The notes: generated by a model not told the origin, from the sequence alone. Shown: positions 20,575 through 33,815, counted from the first letter of the stretch. The stretch is DNA of 64,000 nucleotides from a virus (IMGVR_UViG_3300042402_002055:32001-96000); one strand, 5' to 3'. Translations and numbers: made by a program.

Positions 20575-22431
20575 ATGGACATTTCAAACAAAATCTTATC
20601 TGAAATTACGGTTTATATGAAGTACGCAAAGTACAGACCAGAATTACAAAGGAGAGAAACATGGTATGAATTGGTTACAAGAAATATGGAAATGCATATT
20701 AAAAAGTATCCACAATTAGAACAAGAGATTAGAGACAATTATCAATTTGTATATGATAAAAAGGTATTACCATCAATGCGTTCAATGCAGTTCGCAGGTA
20801 AACCAATTGAAATGTCACCAAATAGAATTTACAATTGTGCATTTGCACCGATTGATGATTGGAGAGTATTTTCAGAAATTATGTTCTTACTTTTAGGTGG
20901 AACAGGTGTAGGTTATTCAGTTCAAAAACATCATGTAGATGCATTACCTGAAATTAGAAAACCAAATGCAGACAAAACTCGTAGATTCCTTATTGGAGAT
21001 TCTATCGAAGGATGGGCCGATTCAATTTCAGTATTAGTAAAATCATATTTCTTTGGTGGAAGTAAACCTCAATTTGATTTTAGAGATATTAGACAAAAGG
21101 GTGCAAGATTGATTACATCTGGTGGTAAAGCTCCAGGACCTCAACCACTTAAAGAATGTCTAATCAAATTAGAAGGTATTTTAGATGCTAAAAAGAATGG
21201 TGATAAATTATCTCCAATCGAAGTACATGATATGGTTTGTCATATTGCAGACGCAGTATTGGCAGGTGGTATTAGAAGAGCGGCATTAATTTCATTGTTC
21301 TCTGCAAATGACGAACAAATGATTAGTTGTAAGAGTGGTGCATGGTGGGAAACAAATCCACAAAGAGGTAGAGCAAATAACTCAGCAGTATTGATGAGAC
21401 ATAAGATTGATAAACCATACTTTATGGACTTATGGAAAAGAATTGAAGCAAGTGGAGCAGGTGAACCTGGTATCTACTTATCAAACGACAAAGATTGGGG
21501 AACTAATCCATGTTGTGAAATTGCATTGAGACCTTTTCAATTCTGTAATTTATGTGAAGTTAATGTAAGTGATGTGGTTGACCAGGATGATTTAAATGCA
21601 AGAGTTAAAGCAGCATCATTCATCGGAACATTACAAGCTGGTTATACTGATTTCCATTACCTTCGTCCAATCTGGCAAAGAACAACTGAAAAGGACGCAC
21701 TTATTGGTGTATCTATGACAGGTATCGGAAGTGGTGCAGTTTTGAAAATGAATATGAAAGAAGCAGCAAAAGTTGTTAAAGTTGAAAATGCAAGAGTAGC
21801 CGAAGTATTGGGTATCAATGCATCTGCAAGAACTACAACGGTTAAACCTGCAGGAACAACATCATTGACTTTAGGAACAAGTAGTGGCATCCACGCTTGG
21901 CATAACGATTACTATATTCGTAGAGTAAGAGTAGGTAAGAACGAAGCAATTTATTCTCACTTATTAGTAAACCATCCAGAATTAGTAGAAGATGAATATT
22001 TTAGACCACATGATACCGCAGTAATCGGTATTCCACAAAAGGCACCATCGGATGCAATCTTTAGAACTGAATCTCCAATTCAATTATTAGAGAGAGTTAA
22101 GAAAGTACATGGTGAGTGGATTAAACCAGGACATAGAACAGGAAACAACACGCATAATGTATCTGCAACGGTTTCAATTAGAGAGCATGAGTGGGATGCA
22201 GTTGGTGAGTGGATGTGGGAAAATAAAGAATATTACAACGGACTTTCAGTATTACCTTACGATGGTGGAACTTACATTCAAGCACCATTTGAAGATTGTA
22301 CAAAAGAAAAGTACGAAGAATTAATGAAAACACTTAATGAAGTAGACCTAAGTAAAGTTATTGAAATCGAAGATAATACAGATTTATCAGGTGAAGTAGC
22401 TTGTGCAGGAGGTGCGTGTGAAGTTAAATAA
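20575..22431 (+). CDS. nrdJ: Class II (adenosylcobalamin-dependent) ribonucleotide reductase
   Basis: YNCAF, GGIRRAA, TNPCCEI, VKPAGT.S, C-terminal ACAGGACEV; no beta-subunit gene adjacent. Confidence 0.85.
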   Translation: MDISNKILSEITVYMKYAKYRPELQRRETWYELVTRNMEMHIKKYPQLEQEIRDNYQFVYDKKVLPSMRSMQFAGKPIEMSPNRIYNCAFAPIDDWRVFSEIMFLLLGGTGVGYSVQKHHVDALPEIRKPNADKTRRFLIGDSIEGWADSISVLVKSYFFGGSKPQFDFRDIRQKGARLITSGGKAPGPQPLKECLIKLEGILDAKKNGDKLSPIEVHDMVCHIADAVLAGGIRRAALISLFSANDEQMISCKSGAWWETNPQRGRANNSAVLMRHKIDKPYFMDLWKRIEASGAGEPGIYLSNDKDWGTNPCCEIALRPFQFCNLCEVNVSDVVDQDDLNARVKAASFIGTLQAGYTDFHYLRPIWQRTTEKDALIGVSMTGIGSGAVLKMNMKEAAKVVKVENARVAEVLGINASARTTTVKPAGTTSLTLGTSSGIHAWHNDYYIRRVRVGKNEAIYSHLLVNHPELVEDEYFRPHDTAVIGIPQKAPSDAIFRTESPIQLLERVKKVHGEWIKPGHRTGNNTHNVSATVSIREHEWDAVGEWMWENKEYYNGLSVLPYDGGTYIQAPFEDCTKEKYEELMKTLNEVDLSKVIEIEDNTDLSGEVACAGGACEVK

Positions 22432-22600
22432 AGATGATAAGGAATTATATTATTTGGAAAATGGTAAAGTGGTGTTCACTCCTGAGTATCACCTTCAACG
22501 AGGTGATTGCTGTGGGAGTGGGTGCCGCCATTGTCCATATATTCCAGTTGGTATAAAAGGAAATAAAAATACAAAACAAAAACAAAATGGTAACAGTTAA
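22418..22600 (+). CDS. Small Cys-rich protein (DUF5522-like)
   Basis: YYLENGKVVFTPEYHLQRGDCCGSGCRHCPY; probable GTG start at 22418. Confidence 0.7.
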   Translation: MKLNKDDKELYYLENGKVVFTPEYHLQRGDCCGSGCRHCPYIPVGIKGNKNTKQKQNGNS

Positions 22601-22851: not shown

Positions 22852-22883
22852 TTTGGTATTGTGAGAAAAATTAGTTATATTAG
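22852..22883 (+). promoter_or_regulatory. Bacteroidota-type promoter, leaderless
   Basis: TTTG-N20-TATATTAG; ATG at +12 (22888). Confidence 0.7.
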
Positions 22884-22887
22884 ACAT

Positions 22888-23091
22888 ATGAAATTAGTAG
22901 GTGAATTACATCCAATGCATAAACTGACTGAAGAACAGGTATTGCAAATTAGGGAACTATATAAAATAGGTCATAGAAATATTAATGTAATAGCTAGGAA
23001 CTATGGAGTATCATCAGCTAATATAAAAAAAATAGTTACAAACGAAACATGGAAACACATGGTTAAGTGGCCATATGAAAGTACAAGATAA
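22888..23091 (+). CDS. Stand-alone HTH DNA-binding protein (like the C-terminal HTH of phage HNH endonucleases)
   Basis: GELHPMHKLTEEQVLQIRELY....IARNYGVSSANIKKIVTNETWKH; start placed at ATG 22888. Confidence 0.7.
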   Translation: MKLVGELHPMHKLTEEQVLQIRELYKIGHRNINVIARNYGVSSANIKKIVTNETWKHMVKWPYESTR

Positions 23092-23842
23092 ACAATATTG
23101 TGATACTTCCAAGTTTAGTGTAAGGTTAATAGAAAAGTCGGTTGCAAAGAATATAATAGTAAAATATCATTATTCTAAACAATGGACAAAAGTTAGTTAC
23201 GCATTGGGATTGTTCTACGAAAACGACACCGAACATAAATTCTTTGGTGGAGTAAATCAGGAACTAATTGGAGTGATTTGTTATGGTGACCCGATTGGTA
23301 GACATTGTGGAGCATCTATAAGTGAAACATTGGATAGAACGGAAGTGATGGAATTAGTAAGACTTTTTGTATTTGACGGTTATGGTTGTAACATTGAAAG
23401 TTGGTTTGTCGGAAAGTCTTTTGAATGGTTAAAAGAAAACGCAAAACAAATAAGAGCACTGATATCATACTCCGACCCTGTGCAAGGACATAAAGGTCAA
23501 ATATATCAGGCAACAAATTGGTTATATCAAGGAACAAGTATTAGACCTAATGACACATGGTCTTTTCGTTTTGAAGAAGGTGGTAAATGGATACATGGTA
23601 GAACTATGGCACCTTATTGGGGAACAACCTCACCTTTCAAATTACAAGAACTTATTGATAAACCATTTTGGGTAAAGAGAGAACCAAAGAAACATAGGTA
23701 TATCTACATTTTGGGCAAGGATAAAAAAGATAAAAAGGAATTATCAAAAAACATAAAACATCCTTTATATCCATACCCAAAAACATTAGAGAAATATACC
23801 GAAGAAATATTAAAATTAGAACCAATTGAAAGAGTTAAATAA
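23075..23842 (+). CDS. Mom-family (GNAT-fold) DNA adenine modification enzyme, paralog 1
   Basis: IVKYHYS, LIGVICYG.P, ELVRL, NIESWF, LISYSD...GH.G.IYQATNW.Y.G, KHRYIY. Confidence 0.8.
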   Translation: MKVQDKQYCDTSKFSVRLIEKSVAKNIIVKYHYSKQWTKVSYALGLFYENDTEHKFFGGVNQELIGVICYGDPIGRHCGASISETLDRTEVMELVRLFVFDGYGCNIESWFVGKSFEWLKENAKQIRALISYSDPVQGHKGQIYQATNWLYQGTSIRPNDTWSFRFEEGGKWIHGRTMAPYWGTTSPFKLQELIDKPFWVKREPKKHRYIYILGKDKKDKKELSKNIKHPLYPYPKTLEKYTEEILKLEPIERVK

Positions 23843-24629
23843 GTTATATTGTGATACAAGTAGAGTATCGGTTAGAGAAATAAGCAGTTCAGTTGCAAAA
23901 GAAATTATAGTTAAGAAACACTATACACATGCATGGACTGCGTGTAGATATTCATTGGGTATCTTTTACAAAACTGATGAGTCAAATGCATTGGGTGATA
24001 ATGATAAACTAATTGGATGTTTAGTGTATGGATTCCCAGTAGGTGCAAGAGCTGCAAATTCAGTTTCAGATTCAATTACAAAAGATAACATTTTAGAATT
24101 GACACGATTGTATTGTGATGATGGATATGGTTCAAACATTGAGTCATATGCGTTAGGACAATCGTTTAAGTGGTTTAGAGAAAATGATAAAGCAATTAAA
24201 ATCTTAATCTCATACGCAGATAACGGACAAGAACATTTAGGAGGTATTTATCAGGCAACGAATTGGATTTATCAAGGAATGAATACCGATATTGCATTGA
24301 TGCCAAATTACGGAATATCACTTTCAAATGACCCTTACAAATGGATTCATAGCAGAACTGTGTTTTCAATGTGGGGTAGTGGTAATTTGGAACATCTTAG
24401 GAGAGAAATTGGTAAACAGGGATATAAAGAGTTTTGGAGAAGAGAAGAACCACCAAAACATAGATACATACAAGTATTGGGTGCAGACAAAAAAGAAAAA
24501 AGAGAATTACTTAAAACTCTAAAACACGACCCAAAGTCATATCCAAAAGATACACGTGAATTTAATAAGGATATAGAAATCCATACTACAATTGCACCTG
24601 AAACCGAACTTGCAAGTAAGTTTTGGTAA
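23826..24629 (+). CDS. Mom-family (GNAT-fold) DNA adenine modification enzyme, paralog 2
   Basis: IVKKHYT, LIGCLVYG.P, ELTRL, NIESY, LISYAD...EH.G.IYQATNWIYQG, KHRYI; TTG start. Confidence 0.8.
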   Translation: MKELNKLYCDTSRVSVREISSSVAKEIIVKKHYTHAWTACRYSLGIFYKTDESNALGDNDKLIGCLVYGFPVGARAANSVSDSITKDNILELTRLYCDDGYGSNIESYALGQSFKWFRENDKAIKILISYADNGQEHLGGIYQATNWIYQGMNTDIALMPNYGISLSNDPYKWIHSRTVFSMWGSGNLEHLRREIGKQGYKEFWRREEPPKHRYIQVLGADKKEKRELLKTLKHDPKSYPKDTREFNKDIEIHTTIAPETELASKFW

Positions 24630-24653
24630 TTTGAATAATTTTTAGTATATTAC
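24622..24653 (+). promoter_or_regulatory. Bacteroidota-type promoter, leaderless
   Basis: TTTGGTAA, spacer 20, TATATTAC; ATG at +12 (24658). Confidence 0.7.
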
Positions 24654-24657
24654 ATAT

Positions 24658-25833
24658 ATGAATAAATTTTGGGATACAGGCAATGAGCCTAAAAAATCAG
24701 ACGGATTTGATTTTGAAAAAAATAAAAGAGAGTTACTTGAAAATTTAGACTATCTAATGGGTATGTCAGTACAAGAACAAACCCTCTATAAGAAGTGGGT
24801 AGAATGGAATCAGGATTTACATGGTAGTATGAAATTACTTCCTGCATTACACCAACAATACGATAAGATTTGGGAACCCACAGACATATTGGATTATGAT
24901 AAAACTGTAAAGGAAATACAAGAACTAGAACCATTTGTTGAATTGGTAGAAGATGGTGAAGCAACTCGTTGGACACATATGAGAAAGTTAATTTCCTCAA
25001 TGGAATTCAGTGCAAATCCAGGTCGTAATGTTAAAGCATTTGTGAAAGACAGAAAATCAAATAAAATATTAGGTGTTATTTCATTGGGTTCGGATATTAC
25101 AAGTTTGGGTGTTAGAGATAATTTTATAGGTTGGAAAAAAGAAGATAAATTTCAAAATGGTAAATTAAATAACACCACAATCGGAACATCCATTATAGCA
25201 ACACAACCATTGGGTTATAATTTTTTAGGTGGTAAATTGGTCGCAGCATTAACTACATCTCCTGTTTTTAGAAAACAATGGAAAGAAAAATACAATAATA
25301 TTTTAATTGCAGTTGGAACTACTGCCTTATATGGTGCAAGTTCTCAATACAATGCAATTCCACATTTTAAAACATTAGGTGAAAGTAAAGGTTTAATTAA
25401 CATTAAACCAGATGATAAGTATTATGATATTTGGCATCAATATGTTAAAAATTTAGACCCAGTGTGGTATGATAAAGCGATAAACTCCACGGGCCCAAAA
25501 CAAAATGTTTTAATGAGAGTTTTTAAAGAAATCGATGTTAAGGCTTCTCTTTATAATCATGGTTTTAAGAGAGGTGTATATTTTGCACAAATGTATGAGA
25601 ATGGTAATGATTATCTATGTTCTAAAATTGATGAGGATAAATTGATAATGAAACCAAAGTTTGTACAAGGTGACGAATATACAATCAAATGGTGGAAAGA
25701 TAAGGCAATAAAAAGATATACAACATTACATAGTGAAGGAAGATTAAAATCGGAAAAGTTATTTTATGCTGACATCATTGGAATGACATGGGAAGAATGT
25801 AAAGAAAAATATTTAAAAGAAGTGGGAAGATAA
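24658..25833 (+). CDS. DUF4338 / Druantia DruA-like protein
   Basis: PGRN, LGVISLGSD, RD.FIGW, QPLGYNFLGGKLVAAL, TTALYG.SSQYN, LGES.G. Confidence 0.7.
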   Translation: MNKFWDTGNEPKKSDGFDFEKNKRELLENLDYLMGMSVQEQTLYKKWVEWNQDLHGSMKLLPALHQQYDKIWEPTDILDYDKTVKEIQELEPFVELVEDGEATRWTHMRKLISSMEFSANPGRNVKAFVKDRKSNKILGVISLGSDITSLGVRDNFIGWKKEDKFQNGKLNNTTIGTSIIATQPLGYNFLGGKLVAALTTSPVFRKQWKEKYNNILIAVGTTALYGASSQYNAIPHFKTLGESKGLINIKPDDKYYDIWHQYVKNLDPVWYDKAINSTGPKQNVLMRVFKEIDVKASLYNHGFKRGVYFAQMYENGNDYLCSKIDEDKLIMKPKFVQGDEYTIKWWKDKAIKRYTTLHSEGRLKSEKLFYADIIGMTWEECKEKYLKEVGR

Positions 25834-25834
25834 T

Positions 25835-28390
25835 ATGTATCAAAATATATTTTACGAAAGAGCAAAAAATCTCATGCACTTGTGGGATGACAAAAATGGA
25901 TATCAAACAATGCCATACCGAAAGTATGCGTATAAAAAAGACCCACAAGGACAGCATCTTTCAATGAATGGAGAAAGACTTACAAGAATTTCAAAATGGG
26001 AAAAAGAAGACAATGATGACTTATTTGAAAGTGATGTTCCAGAAACAACAAGAGTGTTAGTGGATATTTACGATAGTGATATTCCTTCGAATGGACATAG
26101 AGTATTGACTTTTGACATTGAGGTTGAAATGATATCAGGACTCCCAAACACAAAAGAAGCACAAAACGAACTGACAGCAATTGCAGCACATGATGGTGCA
26201 ACTAAATTGTATGATGTATTCGTATTAGACAAAGACAAAATAGTTAAAAATAATGCCAAAAACTTTAATAAAGATGGGAGAGAAGTTACTCTACACATTT
26301 TCGATAACGAGAAAAATCTCTTACTTGCTTTCCTTAATTATTACGAGGAAATTGACCCGACTATTCTTACGGGATGGAATATAGATTTCTTTGATATTCC
26401 GTATTTGTATAATCGTATAAAAAATGTATGTGGAGAAGGCCATGCAAAAAGACTTTCTAGAATAGGACAATGTTTCTATTCACCATATAGAGAGAAATGG
26501 TCTTTTGGTGGTGTATCAATTTTGGATTACATCAGTTTATACAAACAATACAACTTTGGACTAGAAAGTTCATACACATTGAACCACATCGCAACAAAAG
26601 AATTGGGTAGAGGCAAAGTTGAGTATGAAGGAAGCTTGGATGATTTATTTGTAAATGATTTAGAAAAGTTTATTGAGTATAATATTGTCGATGTGGACTT
26701 AGTGGTATCAATGGATGAGAAGTTAAAGTTTATTGATTTATGTCGAGCTATATGTCACGCCGGTTATGTTCCTTATGAAGATTATATGTTTTCGTCAAAA
26801 TGGTTAGAAGGAGCTTGTTTAGCATATCTTAAAACTAAAAATATGGTTGCAACAAACAAACCGGCCGATAGGAGAGAGAGAATGCAAGCATTGAAAGATA
26901 ATGACCAAGAAAAGTTTATTGGAGCATATGTAAAAGAACCCATCGTTGGTAAGTATGATTGGATTTATGATTTGGATTTGACATCACTATACCCATCAAT
27001 CATTATGACCCTAAATATCAGTCCTGAAACAAAGATTGGTAAGATTTCAAATTGGGATGCAGAACAATATATCAAAGGTGAGGAAATCACTTATAAGTTA
27101 AAGGGTAAGGATGGTGATGAATACGAATACAATCGTCAGGAATTAGCAGATGTTATTAAAGATAGTAATTTGGGTGTAGCAGCCAATGGAGTCCTTTATA
27201 TGCAAGATAAACCAGGTTTGATTGCGGATATCCTTAACACATGGTTTAACAAAAGGGTTGAATATCGTAAATTAGAAAAGAAATATGGTGAGGAAAAAAA
27301 TACCGAATTATATGAGTTCTATGGTAAGAGACAACACGTTCAAAAGATTCTATTGAACTCAATGTATGGTGTATTAGGATTACCTGCATTCCGTTTCTAT
27401 GATGTGGATAACGCAGAGGCAGTAACCCTAACAGGACAAGTAGTAATTAAAAAGACGGCTGAAATGGCAAATAGAAAATATTGGAAAGAATTAGAAACAA
27501 CTGACGACTATAATGTTTATATTGATACCGACTCAATTTATATGATGGCAGAACCTTTGGTAAAACATAGATACCCAGAATATAAGACATTTGATGAAAA
27601 GAGGATGGCAGTTGAAGTGGATAACATTGCAACCGAAACACAAACATTCTTAAACTCATTCTACGACTTATTGGCAGAGAGATTTTTCTTTATTCCAAAA
27701 GATAAACATAGATTTGAGATTAAAAAGGAATATATCAGTAAAGCAGGATTTTGGGTAGCAAAGAAACGATATGCACAATGGATGATTTTGAAAAACGGAA
27801 TACCTTGTGATAAGTTGGATGTTAAAGGTTTGGATGTAGTTAGAAGTTCATTTCCAAAAGCATTCCAAAAGTTTATGTCGACAATGTTGAAAGATATTCT
27901 AATGGGTAAAGACCATGAATATATAGATGATACTCTATTGACATTTAAGAAAAGTTTACCAACACTACCTGTAAATACAATAGCAAAAGGTGGAGCATTA
28001 AAAGAATTGAGTAAATATGATAATGGTAGTTGGAAACCTGGAAATGCAGTAGCAAATTTTGAGAAAGGAACACCTGCACACGTTAAAGCCGGAATAACAT
28101 ATAATAGATTATTAAAATTCTTTAATTGTCCATATAAGCATGAACCAATTAGAGATGGTGATAAAGTAAAATGGGTATATCTTAAAGACAACCCATTAGG
28201 ATTAGAAACAGTTGCATTCAAAGATTATAATGACCCAAAAGAAATTATGGATTTTGTGGAAACCTATGTGGATAGAAACAAAATATTTGAAGCAGAATTA
28301 GAAAACAAATTAGATGACTTTTATAACGCATTAAAGTGGGATAAAGTTACCGCAGATACAAAAACAGCAAAAAAGTTTTTCGCATTTTAA
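25835..28390 (+). CDS. Family B DNA polymerase (T4 gp43-like)
   Basis: ExoI FDIEV, ExoII GWNIDFFD, ExoIII YNIVD, DLTSLYPSII, KILLNSMYG, YIDTDS, KKRY. Confidence 0.95.
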   Translation: MYQNIFYERAKNLMHLWDDKNGYQTMPYRKYAYKKDPQGQHLSMNGERLTRISKWEKEDNDDLFESDVPETTRVLVDIYDSDIPSNGHRVLTFDIEVEMISGLPNTKEAQNELTAIAAHDGATKLYDVFVLDKDKIVKNNAKNFNKDGREVTLHIFDNEKNLLLAFLNYYEEIDPTILTGWNIDFFDIPYLYNRIKNVCGEGHAKRLSRIGQCFYSPYREKWSFGGVSILDYISLYKQYNFGLESSYTLNHIATKELGRGKVEYEGSLDDLFVNDLEKFIEYNIVDVDLVVSMDEKLKFIDLCRAICHAGYVPYEDYMFSSKWLEGACLAYLKTKNMVATNKPADRRERMQALKDNDQEKFIGAYVKEPIVGKYDWIYDLDLTSLYPSIIMTLNISPETKIGKISNWDAEQYIKGEEITYKLKGKDGDEYEYNRQELADVIKDSNLGVAANGVLYMQDKPGLIADILNTWFNKRVEYRKLEKKYGEEKNTELYEFYGKRQHVQKILLNSMYGVLGLPAFRFYDVDNAEAVTLTGQVVIKKTAEMANRKYWKELETTDDYNVYIDTDSIYMMAEPLVKHRYPEYKTFDEKRMAVEVDNIATETQTFLNSFYDLLAERFFFIPKDKHRFEIKKEYISKAGFWVAKKRYAQWMILKNGIPCDKLDVKGLDVVRSSFPKAFQKFMSTMLKDILMGKDHEYIDDTLLTFKKSLPTLPVNTIAKGGALKELSKYDNGSWKPGNAVANFEKGTPAHVKAGITYNRLLKFFNCPYKHEPIRDGDKVKWVYLKDNPLGLETVAFKDYNDPKEIMDFVETYVDRNKIFEAELENKLDDFYNALKWDKVTADTKTAKKFFAF

Positions 28391-28392
28391 TT

Positions 28393-29139
28393 ATGAAAAG
28401 TTTAAATTTTTGGAAACCAGAAGGATTTGACATTGCCAGTTATAAGTGGCACCTAAAGGAAAGAGTAGATAAAGAAATATTAGGAAATGGTTCCGATGTA
28501 GGGAGTTGTTATTACACTTTCAATGAATTGGGATTTAGAGGAGACTCACCAAAAAAGAAAGGAACTAGAGTAATGTCCGTTGGTTGTTCACACACCGAAG
28601 GAATTGGTGTCCACAATCATCAAACTTGGTCACATTATTTGACTAGGAGCATGAAGTCCGCAGTTGATTTAAACTTAGGAATAAGTGGAAGGAGTAATGA
28701 TTATATTTCCAGAACAATAATATCATGGACAGATTATCTTAATCCTGATTTGGTTTTAGTGATGTACACATACCCACATAGAAGAGAATTTTATAGAGAA
28801 ACAGGTGAAGTTGAGCCATATCATCCAAATCCTTGGGGATACTTTGATGAGGATAAAGAAGGTAGAATGGTATGGGCAAATAAAATTGCCTCATCAAACG
28901 ATTCGGAAGATTTTATCAATTGGTATAAAAATCACCAACTAATAACTTATTTTTTGAAATCAAAAGAAATTCCTTTTATTTGGAATGGAACATTTGTTGG
29001 AACCGATTACACCGATGAAAATAGATTTGATGGTGATTACCCAAATTTACCAGACTCACATAGTCATGCATCCCCACAACAAAATGAGATATATTCCAAA
29101 AAACTTTTAAATCATATCAAACAAAATTTTGAAATTTAA
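28393..29139 (+). CDS. SGNH-like hydrolase/acyltransferase paralog A
   Basis: N.LGFRG, GCSHTEG, NLGISGRSNDYI, C-terminal HSHAS. Confidence 0.6.
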   Translation: MKSLNFWKPEGFDIASYKWHLKERVDKEILGNGSDVGSCYYTFNELGFRGDSPKKKGTRVMSVGCSHTEGIGVHNHQTWSHYLTRSMKSAVDLNLGISGRSNDYISRTIISWTDYLNPDLVLVMYTYPHRREFYRETGEVEPYHPNPWGYFDEDKEGRMVWANKIASSNDSEDFINWYKNHQLITYFLKSKEIPFIWNGTFVGTDYTDENRFDGDYPNLPDSHSHASPQQNEIYSKKLLNHIKQNFEI

Positions 29140-29180: not shown

Positions 29181-29894
29181 ATGAACAAAAACAATTTATT
29201 AAAATTTATTCAAAAGTATTCATTGGGTGGACTTATTGAATCAGTAGCATGGAATGCAGAAGGAACAAAGTTATCAGTTAGATTTATTTCAGATGACAAA
29301 ACATTATTAGGTGAAGTAGAGTTTAACGCTTACACATCAACATCAATGAATGTGGGTATTTACACAACATCATTATTGAAAAATATGATTGGTGTATTAG
29401 ACAACGATTTAACATTAAAAGTTGATAAAGCAGGTGATAAATCGGTATCATTAAAGTTATCGTCTGACGAAACTGAAACATCTTATCAATTAGCAGACTT
29501 AGGAGTTATTCCACCTGTACCAGATTTGAAAGCATTGCCTGATTTTGGTATTTCAATTGATATGGCATCTAATATGATTGACAAATTTATCAAAGCAAAA
29601 GGTGCATTGAGTGATGTAGATACTTTCACAATCTTTACCGAAGCTGGTGATTTGAAGATGGCAATTGGTTATTCTTCTATCTCTACAAACCGAGTTACAT
29701 TTACTGCACAAAAAGATTACGCAGAAACAGTAAAACCAATTTCCTTCTCAGCAAAGTATTTGAAAGAAATCTTAACTGCAAACAAAGAAGCAACATCAGC
29801 AAAGTTAAAAGTTTCAACCGATGGTTTATCGAATGTTGAATTCCAAATTGATGACTTTGTGTGTAAATATTATTTAGTAGAAATTTCAAACTAA
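29181..29894 (+). CDS. Sliding clamp (T4 gp45-like)
   Basis: 237 aa, two-domain beta-rich pattern, GIY...L, C-terminal KYYLV; lies between PolB and the clamp loader. Confidence 0.7.
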   Translation: MNKNNLLKFIQKYSLGGLIESVAWNAEGTKLSVRFISDDKTLLGEVEFNAYTSTSMNVGIYTTSLLKNMIGVLDNDLTLKVDKAGDKSVSLKLSSDETETSYQLADLGVIPPVPDLKALPDFGISIDMASNMIDKFIKAKGALSDVDTFTIFTEAGDLKMAIGYSSISTNRVTFTAQKDYAETVKPISFSAKYLKEILTANKEATSAKLKVSTDGLSNVEFQIDDFVCKYYLVEISN

Positions 29895-30606: not shown

Positions 30607-31311
30607 ATGAAAAAAATATATTTTGATGGGTGTTCTTACACATTCGGCCAAAGTTTAGAATTATATTGTAATTCACATGATATATTTCAACATGATAGAT
30701 TGAGTAAATATAAATTTACAGAAAGTGATTTAAAATTTATAAAAGAAAACAGATATACTTCAATTGTATCAAAACATTTTGAATTTGATGAAGTAAATAA
30801 ATCGATACCTGGAAAATCAAATGGAAAAATTTTATTTGATTTGAATAAACAAAATATAGATTTATACGAACATGTTATAATTCAATTAACACATTTTGGT
30901 AGATATTTTACAAAAAATATGCACGAATGGCAAAGTCACGAAGCAACGATTGACTTTATGTTAAAAAATGGATATCTAACACAGGAAGAAATAGATTATA
31001 CAATAGAAAATATAGAAAAAATTCAACTTGATTATTTTTTACAATTAGAAGAAAAATTTAAAAACTATCCAAATAAACTTAAAATCATATTTCATAGTGA
31101 TGAGTGGGAAGAAATACTATCAAAAGAACAAATACAAAAATATGGTATAAATATTGAAGGTGAGTATATGATTAAGAAGTGGGCTGAAAAGAATAATATG
31201 TTTATAAATCAACAAGACGAATTTAAAAATAGTATCTTTGCAAACTACGATACACATTTAACACCTGCAGGACATAAAATATTAGCAGAATCAATAATAA
31301 AACAATTATGA
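30607..31311 (+). CDS. SGNH-like hydrolase/acyltransferase paralog B
   Basis: FDGCSYTFG, NKSIPGKSN, IQLT...R, DTHLTPAGHKILA. Confidence 0.65.
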   Translation: MKKIYFDGCSYTFGQSLELYCNSHDIFQHDRLSKYKFTESDLKFIKENRYTSIVSKHFEFDEVNKSIPGKSNGKILFDLNKQNIDLYEHVIIQLTHFGRYFTKNMHEWQSHEATIDFMLKNGYLTQEEIDYTIENIEKIQLDYFLQLEEKFKNYPNKLKIIFHSDEWEEILSKEQIQKYGINIEGEYMIKKWAEKNNMFINQQDEFKNSIFANYDTHLTPAGHKILAESIIKQL

Positions 31312-32255
31312 GTTTTTTCGCAAACGAAAACAATAAAAAAGAACATAGCTTGTGGGTGGAGAAATACCGTCCACAAACTCTTGCCGACTATGTTGGTAAT
31401 GAAACCATCAAAGAAACAATTCAGCAATATTTAGATGCAAATGATATACCACATTTATTGTTGTATGGAAAAGCGGGCACGGGTAAGACCACACTTGCTA
31501 AACTAATCGTAAACACAATTAAATGTGACTTTATGATTATCAACGCATCGGATGAAAACAATGTGGATACCGTAAGAACAAAAGTAAAGAACTTCGCATC
31601 ATCGGTTGGATTTGCAGGTTTCAAAGTAATCATCTTAGATGAGTTTGATTATATGACACCCGGAGCACAAGCGATTTTGAGAAACTTAATGGAAACATTC
31701 AGTAAGCATTGTAGATTTATCTTAACCTGTAATTACATTGAGAAAATCATTGACCCTATCCAAAGTAGATGTCAATCTTTCGCAATCACTCCTCCTACTA
31801 AAAAGGATGTAGCAGTTCAGGTAGCAAAGATATTAGAAGCTGAAAAGATTAAGTTTGAACCAAAGAATATGGCTGATGTGATTAATTCATATTATCCAGA
31901 CATTAGAAGGATACTTAATACTTGTCAATTACAATCTGCAAAAGGTGAATTGAAAGTAGACCATAGAGTAATGGTTGAAGCAAACTTTGCAAGTAAACTT
32001 ATTGAGTTATTGAAATCAAATGATGAAAAACGAAATGTGTTTATGGCAACAAGACAAGCCGTAGCAGATAACAAATTAAATGACTACTCCGAAATGTATA
32101 CAATGTTATATGACAAAGTTGATGAATATGCAACCGGAAATGTAGCAAATGTTATTTTGACAATTGCAGATGGTCTTTCAAAAGATGCATTGGTAGTAGA
32201 TAAGGAAATCGTATTTATGTCTACAATTATACAAATATTAAACATTATAAAATAA
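31308..32255 (+). CDS. Clamp loader AAA+ subunit (T4 gp44/RFC-like)
   Basis: WVEKYRP, GKAGTGKTT, INASD, ILDEFD, SRC. Confidence 0.93.
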   Translation: MSFFANENNKKEHSLWVEKYRPQTLADYVGNETIKETIQQYLDANDIPHLLLYGKAGTGKTTLAKLIVNTIKCDFMIINASDENNVDTVRTKVKNFASSVGFAGFKVIILDEFDYMTPGAQAILRNLMETFSKHCRFILTCNYIEKIIDPIQSRCQSFAITPPTKKDVAVQVAKILEAEKIKFEPKNMADVINSYYPDIRRILNTCQLQSAKGELKVDHRVMVEANFASKLIELLKSNDEKRNVFMATRQAVADNKLNDYSEMYTMLYDKVDEYATGNVANVILTIADGLSKDALVVDKEIVFMSTIIQILNIIK

Positions 32256-32260
32256 ACAAA

Positions 32261-32500
32261 ATGGAACAAGGACAACAATTACCAACGAATTTTAACTTAA
32301 ACGATGCAAGAGATATGGATTGTGAATGTGGTGGAAAGATATTTTTACCAGCATATAGATTTAAAAAGATATCTCGTTTATTAACAGGACAACCAAAGGA
32401 TTCGGTTATGCCTATTGAATTGTATGTATGTGCAAGTTGTGGTAAAGCATTAAACGAATTATTACCACAAGAATTACAAGAAACAAAAATCACAGAATAA
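32261..32500 (+). CDS. Zinc-ribbon protein
   Basis: CECGG ... CASCG. Confidence 0.65.
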   Translation: MEQGQQLPTNFNLNDARDMDCECGGKIFLPAYRFKKISRLLTGQPKDSVMPIELYVCASCGKALNELLPQELQETKITE

Positions 32501-32949
32501 TGGCAGCAAAATTGTTTGACCATATCAATGCAATAACTACCATACAAGACCCTAAGTATTTTGACAAACTATCTGACGAAGATGTTAAGACTTGGAGTAA
32601 TTTTATGATAAATAGATTTCTATCAATGAAGCCTGAATGGGTTGAGTTGGTAGCATCTCTATTGCCTTTAACACAAACTCTACAACCAAAAGAAATGTAT
32701 AAGTTGTATATTAGTGTTATTCCAAAAGGTAAATACTTTTTGAAATATATAAAAGGAAAATCAGAGGATAAATATGAACAATTCATAGTTGACTTATTAA
32801 AGAAAGAATATGATTGTTCAGAAAATCAAGCAATTGAATATTTGGAAGTTCTTTATTCTACAAGAGAGGGTAGGGAATATATGAAGTATGTTTCCGAAAA
32901 ATATGGTATAGATAAAAAACAAATAACAAAACTAAAATTAAAAATATAG
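32500..32949 (+). CDS. Clamp loader small subunit (T4 gp62-like)
   Basis: LFD.INAI, FMINRFLSM, IPKGKYFLKYIK, Y.CSE..A.EY. Confidence 0.8.
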   Translation: MAAKLFDHINAITTIQDPKYFDKLSDEDVKTWSNFMINRFLSMKPEWVELVASLLPLTQTLQPKEMYKLYISVIPKGKYFLKYIKGKSEDKYEQFIVDLLKKEYDCSENQAIEYLEVLYSTREGREYMKYVSEKYGIDKKQITKLKLKI

Positions 32950-33815
32950 TGTTAAATAAAAAATATTTAATAGCAAATGGCTGTTCTTTTACCGAAGGTC
33001 ACCATTTGGGAAACGAAGGGTCGTGGGCAAAATTTTTAGGTAGTAAATTGAATTTAGAGGTAATAAATTTGGCAAAAGGTGGTAGTGGAAATGATACCAT
33101 AGTATGGCGAACTATGGAATTTTGTGAAATGAATAAAGATATTGCAAACAATTCATTATATGTAATTCAATTGAGTGAATGTTTAAGATACCACTTATAT
33201 TTTGATAATGGTATGGATAAACCACAGGAATGGCAAGTCACCCCTTTATGTTTTTTAAAAGGAATGGAGTGGAATAAAGGTGGAAATGGAGTTCAAAGTT
33301 GGATTTATAAAAACAAAGAAGAGTTGGTTTATATTTACAATAATATAACATTTGCATTATATAAAACTTTTCAAAATATTTTATCAATTGTTTCTTATTT
33401 TGAATCAAAAGGATACCCATATATTATTTTTGATGGAATAAATGACCACAATCCAATAAAAGTTAATAATTCATATTATTTAAAAGAATCTTGGAATGAT
33501 GATGCAAACGAACAATTTAAAATATTAACATCATTGGATATACAATTCCCAAATGATTATAAAAAATCTTTAGTAGATAGAGATTATGGTTATTTTATAC
33601 ATGAAACATTAATAAAAAATATATTTTCAAATAAGAAAGTATTTAAAGAAATTCCAACAATGATGAAATTTGTTATGGAAATTGGTTTAAAAAATCATAA
33701 TGATAGTGAATACTATTTTAGAGAAAATGGTGGCCACCCAAATATGGAAGCGGCTGACCAATGGGCAAATGTACTCAAAAATTATATAGAAGAAATATTT
33801 GGTAAATCGGAATAA
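32949..33815 (+). CDS. SGNH-like hydrolase/acyltransferase paralog C
   Basis: ANGCSFTEG, SW, NLAKGGSGNDTI, IQLS...R, GGHPN. Confidence 0.65.
   Translation: MLNKKYLIANGCSFTEGHHLGNEGSWAKFLGSKLNLEVINLAKGGSGNDTIVWRTMEFCEMNKDIANNSLYVIQLSECLRYHLYFDNGMDKPQEWQVTPLCFLKGMEWNKGGNGVQSWIYKNKEELVYIYNNITFALYKTFQNILSIVSYFESKGYPYIIFDGINDHNPIKVNNSYYLKESWNDDANEQFKILTSLDIQFPNDYKKSLVDRDYGYFIHETLIKNIFSNKKVFKEIPTMMKFVMEIGLKNHNDSEYYFRENGGHPNMEAADQWANVLKNYIEEIFGKSE

What the first reader, a model, noticed from the sequence alone, without database searches (positions are those of the whole stretch)
22852..28390. Candidate novel DNA hypermodification system: HTH + two Mom paralogs + DruA/DUF4338-like gene coupled to DNA polymerase B
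Seen: a leaderless promoter drives a stand-alone HTH gene that overlaps two tandem, mutually similar Mom-family genes (HY, ELxRL, ES, SY(S/A)D..H.G.IYQATNW). A second leaderless promoter drives a DruA-like gene (LGGKLVA, TT.LYG.SSQYN) that ends 1 nt before PolB. Known: Mu Mom is a GNAT-fold enzyme that makes N6-carbamoylmethyl-adenine to block restriction and is tightly regulated; DruA belongs to bacterial type I Druantia defence loci and its biochemistry is unclear. Inference: three acyltransferase-like enzymes act together at the replisome to install one or more unknown base modifications (heterodimer, different sequence contexts or sequential steps), with the HTH as regulator. This would also suggest DruA is a DNA self-marking enzyme, or that the phage copy is an anti-Druantia mimic.
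Basis: partly seen in the sequence, partly recalled or inferred. Interest (0 to 1): 0.85.

Follow-up and report, generated by a model that had tools for sequence, protein, structure and literature searches.

The report
Mom and DruA-like enzymes beside phage polymerase
An uncultured large phage carries, just upstream of its DNA polymerase, two copies of the DNA-disguising enzyme Mom and a third Mom-shaped enzyme of the unexplained bacterial DruA family, which probably mark phage DNA chemically and give a testable lead on what DruA does.

Summary
At 22853-28390 a small HTH gene overlaps two tandem Mom-family genes (46% identical). A DruA/DUF4338-family gene follows and ends 1 nt before a family-B polymerase. 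Both units sit behind a recurrent phage promoter motif that ends 6 nt before the ATG.

- Both Moms keep six of the eight residues named important in Mu Mom, which is now known to use Gly-tRNA(Gly).
- The DruA-like protein has no sequence or profile similarity to Mom. Its high-confidence model is a GNAT fold, and its best match among 48,161 solved chains is Mu Mom (Z 10.2). It keeps a near-canonical acyl-CoA P-loop that I do not see in Mu Mom's aligned stretch.
- Its most variable part is a helical insertion that I place where Mom has its DNA-binding insertion.
- Its gene is swapped between otherwise near-identical phages.

DruA-like genes sit among replisome genes in three myovirus groups, but they are not tied to Mom. 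A fold of its N-terminal part against the phage's PCNA-like clamp gave only weak support. No chemistry, target or regulation was tested.

This scan has reported the same module on other DNA: 51 notes in at least 42 genomes.

Verdict: a new variant of a known kind, interest about 0.6.

The parts
22853..22881 (+). Phage promoter motif TTGGTA-N17-TATATT. It ends 6 nt before the ATG at 22888.
   Evidence: It is one of 13 matches, all on the + strand, against 1.72 expected.
22888..23091 (+). Small HTH protein, 67 aa from the ATG (76 aa if the GTG at 22861 were used). Its 3' end overlaps Mom1 by 17 nt.
   Evidence: Pfam HTH_7 E 8.6e-4, below the cut-off, and Mor E 0.018. PHROG HTH parts of HNH endonucleases, E 8e-6. 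Kept upstream of Mom or DruA in 34 of 47 relatives with at least 2.6 kb upstream.
23075..23842 (+). Mom1, a Mom-family GNAT (255 aa).
   Evidence: PF25680 149 bits; phrog_1384 E 5.3e-51; PDB 8bv8 E 3.9e-7. The Mu Mom residue equivalents H32, Y33, R96, S109, D134 and Y144 are invariant in A2.
23826..24629 (+). Mom2, a Mom-family GNAT (267 aa, TTG start). Its last codons K-F-W-stop overlap the first hexamer of the next promoter.
   Evidence: PF25680 146.3 bits; 8bv8 E 2.6e-5 with a residue alignment; 46% identical to Mom1. The C-terminal KFW is kept in 46 of 46 relatives, and the promoter overlap in 40 of 46.
24623..24651 (+). Second promoter motif TTGGTA-N17-TATATT. It ends 6 nt before the DruA-like ATG.
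   Evidence: The arrangement is kept in relatives.
24658..25833 (+). DruA/DUF4338-family protein (391 aa). It has a disordered N-terminal tail with invariant F4-W5, a helical N-domain (19-112), and a GNAT core (about 86-321) with a P-loop-like Q183-P-L-G186-Y-N188 and a variable helical insertion at 253-299, followed by a helical C-terminal part.
   Evidence: PF14236 74.5 bits; PADLOC DruA E 2.2e-23. AF2 model pLDDT 93.6. VIA top hit Mu Mom, Z 10.2. Conservation.
25835..28390 (+). Family-B replicative DNA polymerase. Its C-terminus ends in KKFFAF.
   Evidence: Pfam DNA_pol_B and its exonuclease domain; phrog_262 E 4.3e-181. The C-terminal (K/Q)FFxF is kept with free synonymous change.
28393..29139 (+). 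SGNH/DUF6071-like protein with an N-terminal (F/Y)W.
   Evidence: Pfam hits are sub-threshold only. N-termini of relatives.
29181..29894 (+). PCNA-like sliding clamp.
   Evidence: AF2 pLDDT 93.4. Foldseek to PCNA chains, E 8.9e-14, TM about 0.7.
31308..32255 (+). Clamp loader large subunit (context).
   Evidence: phrog_168 E 7.2e-85.
32500..32949 (+). Clamp loader small subunit (context).
   Evidence: phrog_225 E 2e-18.

Best explanation
This is a DNA-modification cassette inside the replication gene block of a large uncultured myovirus. It is transcribed as two units from a phage-specific promoter class: HTH-Mom1-Mom2, and DruA-like-PolB onward.

The two Mom paralogs are most likely active Mom-type enzymes. 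By homology with Mu Mom they would transfer glycine from Gly-tRNA(Gly) to N6 of adenine in duplex DNA, which then rearranges to N6-carbamoylmethyl-adenine. They probably act in different sequence contexts, because they differ most, with indels, in the stretch beyond the part that aligns with Mu Mom. I take that stretch to correspond to Mu Mom's DNA-binding insertion.

The DruA-like protein is a third, Mom-shaped GNAT that keeps an acyl-CoA-type P-loop. I infer that it puts a different (acyl) mark on a nucleic-acid target, most likely nascent phage DNA. I also infer that its hypervariable helical insertion sets the target, and that its conserved N-terminal FW tail may dock it on the PCNA-like clamp.

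The pay-off would be protection of phage DNA from host restriction-type defences.

Shown here: the genes, the families, the fold, the conservation and the synteny. Inferred: every activity, the substrate, the donor, the clamp docking and the role of the HTH.
For: Family membership:
- Both Moms score far above the Pfam cut-off and hit PDB 8bv8.
- The equivalents of Mu H58, Y59, R111, S124, D149 and Y159 are invariant in 17 of 17 aligned Moms (residue list from PMC13219725 section 13).
- All 5 near-complete relatives have at least 2 Moms.

The DruA-like protein as a Mom-shaped GNAT:
- AF2 model pLDDT 93.6, pTM 0.90.
- Best of 48,161 chains is Mu Mom: Z 10.2, rmsd 3.4, 164 residues aligned. Ordinary GNATs follow at Z 8.8 and below.
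- Foldseek gives GNATs and 8bv8 at probability 0.99, though with E above 1e-3.
- Q183, P184, G186 and N188 are at least 90% conserved in 44 diverse homologues, directly after strand 173-181. They fit the GNAT P-loop Q/R-x-x-G-x-G/A except at the last position (PMC4964394 passage).

Links to DNA:
- Homologues are fused to ParB_N and to GIY-YIG/NUMOD3 modules.
- DUF4338 is called a GNAT fused to DndF in PMC10853773 (passage).
- Relatives insert GT1-like and GmrSD_N-like genes at the same spot.

Diversification:
- In backbones with Mom1 at 98-99% and PolB at 89-98% identity, DruA is only 65-74% identical.
- Its least conserved blocks are 261-300, inside the helical insertion.

Replisome context:
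- 29 of 80 loci have DruA within 30 nt of PolB, and 24 of 80 have it directly behind the clamp.
- In 8 of 9 cyanophage records examined it lies between the two clamp-loader genes.

Clamp docking:
- F4 and W5 are invariant in 40 of 40 orthologues, in a tail with pLDDT below 50.
- Complex prediction on three clamp copies plus DruA 1-120 returned the verdict 'weak support': score 0.59, best of 3 controls 0.00, partner pLDDT 44-47, runs agreeing in at least 60% of contacts. The tool's calibration is that 58 of 80 solved complexes and 2 of 110 mismatched pairs reached the mark. At 0.60 or under, only 7 of those 80 solved complexes did, as did both mismatches that passed.
Against: - No modification, donor, substrate or transcript start was measured.
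- The DruA-like protein shows no sequence or profile similarity to Mom: BLASTP E 2.0 and hhalign probability 0.4%, E 0.17.
- The Z margin of Mom over generic GNATs is only 1.4, and Foldseek found no match at E 1e-3 or better.
- By strand register its beta-4 (173-181) holds no arginine where Mom has the essential R111. Mom-type chemistry is therefore unlikely, and no residue-level superposition could be made.
- In both Moms, Mu's essential R151 aligns with V or G, and the dimer residue W48 is not kept.
- Mom and DruA-like genes are separable.
- 22 of 80 loci have other genes between DruA and PolB. In pelagiphages and in S-B68 the gene is not in the clamp/polymerase block.
- The FW tail could be a nucleotide-level signal. 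Mom2's KFW-stop codons are the first promoter hexamer in 40 of 46 loci. F is TTT in 152 of the 156 F-W motifs counted (DruA 77 of 78, GT-like 31 of 31, Mom2 44 of 46), against 75% window-wide and 14 of 16 before W.
- The complex score is weak by the tool's own calibration, and the partner's fold was uncertain.
- GNATs also acetylate proteins and small molecules.
Confidence: 0.5

Rival explanations
1. The cassette is real, but its position is incidental. The Trx-PolB interval would be a hot spot where accessory (anti-restriction) genes are inserted and exchanged. The enzymes would act post-replicatively as free proteins, as Mu Mom does, with no physical link to polymerase or clamp. The terminal FW/KFW would reflect promoter or other nucleotide-level signals.
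For: - Content of the interval varies among 80 relatives: one, two or no adjacent Moms, an extra short DruA-like or Mom gene, and 0.4-3 kb inserts (GT1-like, GmrSD_N-like, unknown) between Mom2, DruA and PolB.
- Mu Mom acts post-replicatively on dsDNA (PMC13219725; the title of section 6 in the outline and the abstract).
- Mom2's KFW-stop equals the first promoter hexamer in 40 of 46 loci.
- TTTTGG is nearly fixed at the motif.
- The complex score is weak.
Against: - DruA-like genes sit next to polymerase, clamp or clamp-loader genes in three distant myovirus groups.
- KFW is kept with TTC in two loci where the promoter has moved downstream, and in four loci where my pattern finds no promoter.
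- 5 of 8 ORFs with a terminal F[WF] lie in the block of 11 of 71 ORFs (post hoc P 0.0016).
Confidence: 0.3
2. The DruA-like protein does not act on DNA. It would be a protein or small-molecule acyltransferase, for example acetylating a replisome or host defence protein, a nucleotide or a tRNA. Only the two Moms would modify DNA.
For: - Most GNATs that match the model at Z 7.6-8.8 are protein, aminoglycoside or polyamine acetyltransferases.
- It keeps a CoA-type P-loop-like motif that I do not see in Mu Mom's aligned beta-4/alpha-3 stretch.
- It has no arginine on beta-4.
- It occurs without Mom in 4 of 5 other phage genomes.
Against: - The closest solved structure is the DNA modifier Mom.
- Homologues are fused to ParB_N and homing-endonuclease DNA-binding modules and, per PMC10853773, to DndF.
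- The family belongs to a helicase-based DNA defence system (PADLOC DruA).
- A hypervariable helical insertion is present. By strand order I place it where Mom has its DNA-binding insertion.
Confidence: 0.15
3. The DruA-like protein is a decoy or mimic that disarms host Druantia type I.
For: Only the family membership and the fast evolution of the gene.
Against: - Enzyme-like invariant motifs are kept across 44 diverse homologues.
- The family is spread over phages of cyanobacteria and SAR11 and over giant viruses.
- The gene is embedded in replisome operons.
- No data show that the hosts carry Druantia I.
Confidence: 0.05

Closest known systems
Bacteriophage Mu Mom (Pfam PF25680; PDB 8bv8; Silva et al., Nat Commun 2026, PMC13219725)
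   Same: Mom1 and Mom2 are full-length family members with the H-Y, R, S, D and Y residues kept. The DruA-like protein shares the fold and, by strand order in the model, a helical insertion between the last strands. Mom is its top structural match.
   Different: - There are two tandem paralogs instead of one gene.
- There are no Com or C-type regulators, only a small HTH gene.
- Mu's R151 and W48 are not kept.
- The genes sit in a lytic phage's replisome block, not at a Mu-type genome end (the Mu layout is recalled, not from a call).
- The DruA-like protein has no detectable sequence similarity to Mom, has a P-loop-like motif, and has extra helical N- and C-terminal parts.
DruA (DUF4338, PF14236) of bacterial Druantia type I
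   Same: The core domain matches the Pfam and PADLOC DruA models.
   Different: It stands alone in a phage, with no DruB-E. No MZB/DUF1998 marker was found in the record. The neighbours are polymerase and clamp genes, and the function of DruA itself is unknown.
DruA-like genes of T4-like cyanophages (S-PRM1 and five others in the Phold preprint 10.1101/2025.08.05.668817; S-SCSM2R ORF152, called 'methylcarbamoylase mom' in PMC12801897)
   Same: They are homologous at 26-29% identity over residues about 120-366. They are also embedded among replisome genes. In print they are noted as DruA-like by structure and, separately, as Mom-like by structure (passages).
   Different: There the gene lies between the gp44 and gp62 clamp-loader genes, mostly without Mom. 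It lacks the N-terminal FW tail and ends in (D/E)IIR.
Clamp-tethered DNA-modifying enzymes such as eukaryotic Dnmt1 with its PIP box (recalled, not from a call)
   Same: Only the idea: a short aromatic terminal peptide on a DNA-marking enzyme, next to a PCNA-like clamp gene.
   Different: Here the binding rests on one weak prediction. The motif is at the extreme N-terminus and is not a canonical PIP box.

Membership tests
Mom (PF25680) | Full-length match to the family model above the curated cut-off | tested here: met
   Mom1 scores 149 bits and Mom2 146.3 bits against 27.1, covering profile positions 2-202 of 202.
Mom (PF25680) | Residues shown important in Mu Mom: H58, Y59, R111, S124, D149, Y159 | tested here: met
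   From the phmmer alignment of Mom2 to 8bv8 (chain number + 9 = native number, checked on W48 and S124A) and from A2. H32, Y33, R96, S109, D134 and Y144 are invariant in 17 of 17 sequences.
Mom (PF25680) | Essential R151 and dimer residue W48 of Mu Mom | tested here: not met
   R151 aligns with G in Mom2 and, through A2, with V in Mom1. An invariant His lies 3 residues on. W48 aligns with Ser in Mom2. This is a sequence alignment only.
Mom (PF25680) | Gly-tRNA(Gly)-dependent formation of N6-carbamoylmethyl-dA in dsDNA | not testable with these tools
   This needs biochemistry. No tRNA gene was found in the window.
DruA / DUF4338 (PF14236) | Match to the family model above the cut-off | tested here: met
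   74.5 bits against 27, residues 79-320. PADLOC PDLC00002 E 2.2e-23, residues 88-329.
Druantia type I system | DruA together with DruB-D and the DruE helicase | tested here: not met
   The neighbours are Mom, PolB and clamp genes. No MZB/DUF1998 match was found in the 118,406-base record, which is estimated to be 63% complete.
GNAT superfamily | GNAT fold | tested here: met
   The model (pLDDT 93.6) matches Mom at Z 10.2 and many GNATs at Z 7.6-8.8. Foldseek gives probability 0.99 to SpeG and others.
GNAT superfamily | P-loop Q/R-x-x-G-x-G/A between beta-4 and alpha-3 (acyl-CoA pyrophosphate site) | tested here: inconclusive
   Q183-P-L-G186-Y-N188 follows strand 173-181 and is conserved in at least 90% of 44 sequences, but its last position is N, not G/A. 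No ligand test was made.
Clamp-binding proteins (terminal aromatic peptide) | Binding of the terminal peptide to the sliding clamp | tested here: inconclusive
   Complex prediction gave weak support: 0.59 against a best control of 0.00, with partner pLDDT 44-47. The motif is invariant in 40 of 40 orthologues, but a nucleotide-level reading is not excluded.

The most novel reading that the evidence does not exclude
DruA-family proteins are DNA-marking acyltransferases. They would be Mom-shaped GNATs that use an acyl-CoA-type donor and read DNA through a swappable helical insertion. In these phages they would ride the PCNA-like clamp through an N-terminal FW peptide, together with other tagged enzymes (glycosyltransferase-like, SGNH-like), as a 'toolbelt' that marks DNA as it is made. 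By extension, bacterial DruA would be the self-marking arm of Druantia type I, making that system a modification-dependent defence.
Probability: 0.15. Interest if true: 0.85.

Novelty: new variant of a known kind. Interest (0 to 1): 0.6.

Why it matters
- Mom was until recently a single-phage curiosity. Here it is duplicated and fixed in a widespread group of large aquatic phages, which suggests that tRNA-dependent adenine modification is common in nature.
- DruA is the unexplained signature protein of Druantia type I. Its closest solved relative is the DNA modifier Mom, it keeps a CoA-type loop, and phages place it among replisome genes and exchange it like a specificity gene. Together these give a concrete, cheap experiment: express it, then read nucleosides and sequencing kinetics.
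- If the terminal FW peptide is a clamp tag, this would be a phage case of replication-coupled DNA marking.

Tried and rejected
- **Sequence link between the DruA-like protein and Mom.** BLASTP found nothing. Profile-profile comparison of 44 DruA-like against 17 Mom sequences gave probability 0.4%. PDB by sequence found nothing for the DruA-like protein.
- **Close DNA relatives in phage records.** Only PolB fragments matched.
- **Residue-level superposition of the model on 8bv8.** Not possible, because no coordinates are handed out (one search shows only FASTA files). Statements on equivalent strands and insertions therefore rest on the order of secondary structure.
- **Mom1-Mom2 heterodimer.** Not sent to complex prediction. 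Mu Mom is a solved homodimer, so a pass would come from likeness. Also, 4 of the 47 relatives with enough upstream sequence carry only the Mom2 type, and one carries none next to DruA, so a heterodimer cannot be obligatory.
- **RNA evidence for transcript starts.** 7 metatranscriptome runs held 5-9% of the sampled words. The 4 runs laid are contigs of relatives at 88-99% likeness. They cannot show starts or strand, and nothing can be said from them about expression or habitat.
- **Codon test of the FW motif.** Inconclusive. F is TTT in 152 of the 156 F-W motifs counted, but also in 14 of 16 F-before-W codons in the window, and the sequences are related.
- **Literature.** 'DUF4338' gave 4 papers and 'DruA' as a whole word gave 29, mostly unrelated. 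'Druantia' with 'GNAT' gave 0 papers. One search was badly framed and returned only general GNAT papers. I found no paper in the held library that states the DruA-Mom link, the tandem Moms, or a clamp tag. Subscription journals are not covered. The similarity network and homologue lists of Silva et al. may include these proteins.
- **The look-up of encoding contigs.** It was closed, so the long metagenome contigs behind P0012, P0047 and P0120 were not seen.

Full report
**What is there**

The window is part of a 118,406-base virus record, estimated to be 63% complete. It has about 31-34% G+C and nearly all genes on the + strand. The region of the finding lies in the replication block. The gene order is:
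- DnaB-like helicase
- ribonucleotide reductase
- a small DUF5522 protein
- thioredoxin
- HTH
- Mom1
- Mom2
- DruA-like
- PolB
- an SGNH-like protein
- a PCNA-like clamp
- clamp-loader subunits

. The clamp was confirmed by a model with pLDDT 93.4 that matches PCNA chains at E 8.9e-14 and TM about 0.7.

**Checking the observation**

- The HTH ORF overlaps Mom1 by 17 nt, and Mom1 overlaps Mom2 by 17 nt.
- The DruA-like stop lies 1 nt before the PolB ATG.
- Both Moms score about 146-149 bits on Pfam Mom (cut-off 27.1). The DruA-like protein scores 74.5 bits on Pfam DruA (cut-off 27), and E 2.2e-23 on PADLOC's DruA model.
- The Moms are 46% identical.

The promoter motif TTGGTA-N17-TATATT is a real class. 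It gives 13 matches, all on the + strand, against 1.72 expected, and none of 100 shuffles reached 13. At both units its second hexamer ends 6 nt before an ATG. The same spacing before the DruA-like gene is kept in most relatives. This moves the likely HTH start to ATG 22888 (67 aa), because the GTG at 22861 lies inside the promoter. 'Leaderless' remains an inference.

**The Moms**

Mu Mom is now known to transfer glycine from Gly-tRNA(Gly) to N6 of adenine in dsDNA, followed by rearrangement. It is a GNAT with an HTH-like insertion and forms a dimer. The paper names H58, Y59, R111, S124, D149, R151, Y159 and W48 as important (PMC13219725; abstract and section 13 read).

I aligned Mom2 to PDB 8bv8 and checked the numbering offset on W48 and on the S124A change. 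The equivalents of H58, Y59, R111, S124, D149 and Y159 are kept, and they are invariant in 17 of 17 aligned Moms. R151 and W48 are not kept.

The two paralogs differ most, with indels, after residue about 153. That is beyond the part that aligns with Mu Mom, and I take it to correspond to Mu's insertion. All 5 near-complete relatives examined have at least two Moms. I read both as active enzymes with different target contexts. This is inference.

**The DruA-like protein**

It has no detectable sequence or profile similarity to Mom. A model built on 44 diverse homologues is confident, with pLDDT 93.6 and pTM 0.90.

An all-against-representatives structure search put Mu Mom first of 48,161 chains. 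The match has Z 10.2, rmsd 3.4 and 164 residues aligned, over model residues 86-321. Ordinary GNATs follow at Z 8.8 and below. Foldseek listed GNATs and 8bv8 at probability 0.99, but none at E 1e-3 or better. The fold claim is sound. The special closeness to Mom rests on a margin of 1.4 Z units.

After strand 173-181 comes Q183-P-L-G186-Y-N188 and then G191-G192-K193. These residues are at least 90% conserved or invariant. This fits the GNAT pyrophosphate loop Q/R-x-x-G-x-G/A except at the last position (PMC4964394 passage). I do not see the motif in Mu Mom's aligned stretch.

Strand 173-181 has no arginine where Mom has R111. I therefore expect a different donor and chemistry from Mom. An earlier follow-up note in this scan reached the same view on another genome, and I checked it only by strand register.

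Between strands 238-242 and 306-311 lies a helical insertion (253-299). By strand order I place it where Mom has its insertion. It contains the least conserved blocks of the protein: 261-300 show 37-42% identity to the window across 79 orthologues, against 66-88% in the core blocks.

**Relatives and synteny**

The family is large.
- 2628 proteins at E 1e-3 or better in one search.
- 1036 representatives in the other.
- Members in cyanophages and pelagiphages and in giant viruses.
- Some homologues are fused to ParB_N, DUF3102, GIY-YIG/NUMOD3 or LAGLIDADG modules.

Among 80 viral contigs with orthologues at 57-95% identity, the downstream context falls into these classes:

| Context | Loci (of 80) |
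|---|---|
| DruA within 30 nt of PolB | 29 |
| 0.4-3 kb of other genes between DruA and PolB | 22 |
| DruA directly behind the clamp | 24 |
| Other, or cut by the locus end | 5 |

Upstream context, among the 47 loci with enough sequence:

| Upstream of DruA | Loci (of 47) |
|---|---|
| HTH-Mom1-Mom2 | 29 |
| HTH-Mom2 only | 4 |
| HTH only | 1 |
| Mom1-Mom2 without the HTH in the locus | 2 |
| None of these | 11 |

Some relatives add a short DruA-like gene or a short Mom gene. The inserts include a GT1-like protein and a GmrSD_N-like protein, both below the Pfam cut-offs.

In 8 of 9 cyanophage records examined, the homologue lies between the two clamp-loader genes. In one of these the flanking genes carry other names but hold the same positions. 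S-B68 and the two pelagiphages place it near recombination genes instead. Of five such phage genomes, only one has a Mom gene, and it lies about 70 kb away. So the DruA-like gene is tied to replication genes more than to Mom, and the four-gene 'system' is a lineage-specific arrangement.

**Allele exchange**

In contigs whose Mom1 is 98-99% and PolB 89-98% identical to the window, the DruA-like protein is only 65-74% identical. For example, L021 shows Mom1 98, Mom2 98, PolB 96 and DruA 66. This fits cassette-like replacement of a gene under diversifying selection. With the variable insertion, it is what one would expect of a specificity determinant. This is inference.

**The terminal FW peptide**

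Another first-reader note pointed to K-F-[F/W] ends.
- F4 and W5 are invariant in 40 of 40 orthologues, in a tail modelled as disordered.
- The GT-like inserts start M-x-F-W, and the SGNH-like protein has (F/Y)W at positions 6-7.
- Mom2 ends in KFW in 46 of 46 relatives.
- PolB ends in (K/Q)FFxF.
- In the window, 5 of 8 ORFs with a terminal F[WF] lie in the replication block, which holds 11 of 71 ORFs (post hoc P 0.0016). One of these may have a false start.

A fold of three clamp copies with DruA residues 1-120 returned the verdict 'weak support'. The score was 0.59, the best of 3 controls was 0.00, the partner pLDDT was 44-47, and the runs agreed in at least 60% of contacts. By the tool's own calibration a pass at 0.60 or under is more often wrong than right unless the guess was likely beforehand.

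Against a protein reading:
- Mom2's K-F-W-stop codons are themselves the first hexamer of the next promoter in 40 of 46 loci.
- F is TTT in 152 of the 156 F-W motifs counted, while PolB's phenylalanines change freely between TTT and TTC.

For a protein reading:
- KFW survives with TTC in the two loci where the promoter has moved.
- It also survives in four loci where my pattern finds no promoter.

I leave clamp docking as a hypothesis at about one in four.

**What is in print**

- DUF4338 has been called a GNAT domain (PMC10853773, passage).
- Six Synechococcus phages were noted to carry DruA-like proteins by structure (preprint 10.1101/2025.08.05.668817, passages).
- One cyanophage homologue was annotated as Mom by structural similarity (PMC12801897, passages).

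I found no paper in the held library that joins these points, describes tandem Moms with a DruA-like gene at the polymerase, or proposes a clamp tag.

This scan itself has reported the same module many times on other DNA: 51 notes in at least 42 genomes, several with follow-ups that reached like conclusions. What I add here:
- the promoter overlap as a caveat on the Mom2 tag;
- the P-loop reading;
- the hypervariable insertion with allele exchange;
- the gp44-gp62 position in cyanophages.

**Verdict**

The cassette is best read as a DNA-modification module: two Mom-type enzymes plus a Mom-shaped, probably CoA-using DruA-family enzyme, expressed with the replisome. All chemistry is untested. 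It is a new variant of a known kind. It is of real interest mainly because it makes the function of DruA testable.

Noticed in passing
window, 13 sites: 8301, 9131, 13446, 15398, 22853, 24623, 33799, 40009, 50740, 51746, 55381, 60940, 61335 (all + strand): A phage promoter class, TTGGTA-N17-TATATT. At five sites (9131, 22853, 24623, 33799, 60940) an ATG follows within 6-9 nt, which suggests leaderless or near-leaderless mRNAs. At the others the leader is 19-28 nt or no nearby ATG is evident.
   Followed up: partly
L029, L032, L048 (between DruA and PolB); L025:4893-5996 and L025:3120-4874 (between Mom2 and DruA); L048:7326-8867: Relatives insert a 370-aa GT1-like protein (Pfam E 7e-5, below the cut-off), a 367-aa paralogue with no Pfam hit, a 584-aa protein with no family, and a GmrSD_N/DUF262-like protein (E 3.6e-6, below the cut-off) into the same interval. 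The GT-like proteins start with M-x-F-W like the DruA-like protein.
   Followed up: partly
L008:3684-4415, L010, L049; L021:1090-1689, L005; L061:4645-5256: Some relatives carry an extra short DruA-family gene (243 aa) between the HTH and Mom1 genes, or an extra short Mom gene (199-203 aa) upstream of the reductase or between PolB and the clamp.
   Followed up: partly
proteins P0359, P0371, P0374: DruA-family domains are followed in one ORF by GIY-YIG/NUMOD3 or LAGLIDADG plus HTH_7 modules. These may be homing-endonuclease or intein insertions, or true fusions.
   Followed up: no
BFVD hits to the DruA-like model: Confident structural relatives occur in giant viruses: Faunusvirus E 3.1e-19, Yasminevirus E 9.5e-15, Dasosvirus E 5.2e-9. 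The family therefore reaches eukaryotic viruses.
   Followed up: no
window 28393-29139, 30607-31311, 32949-33815: Three SGNH/GDSL-like paralogues are scattered through the replication block. Two give sub-threshold DUF6071 hits and 30607-31311 has no family hit. Their role among replisome genes is unexplained.
   Followed up: no
L086 (Synechococcus phage S-T4) 3341-3739: In S-T4 a small gene annotated 'methyltransferase' sits directly upstream of the DruA-like gene, between the clamp-loader genes.
   Followed up: no
window 22403-22600: A 65-aa Cys-rich DUF5522 protein (E 6.2e-18) overlaps the end of the reductase gene and the start of the thioredoxin gene.
   Followed up: no
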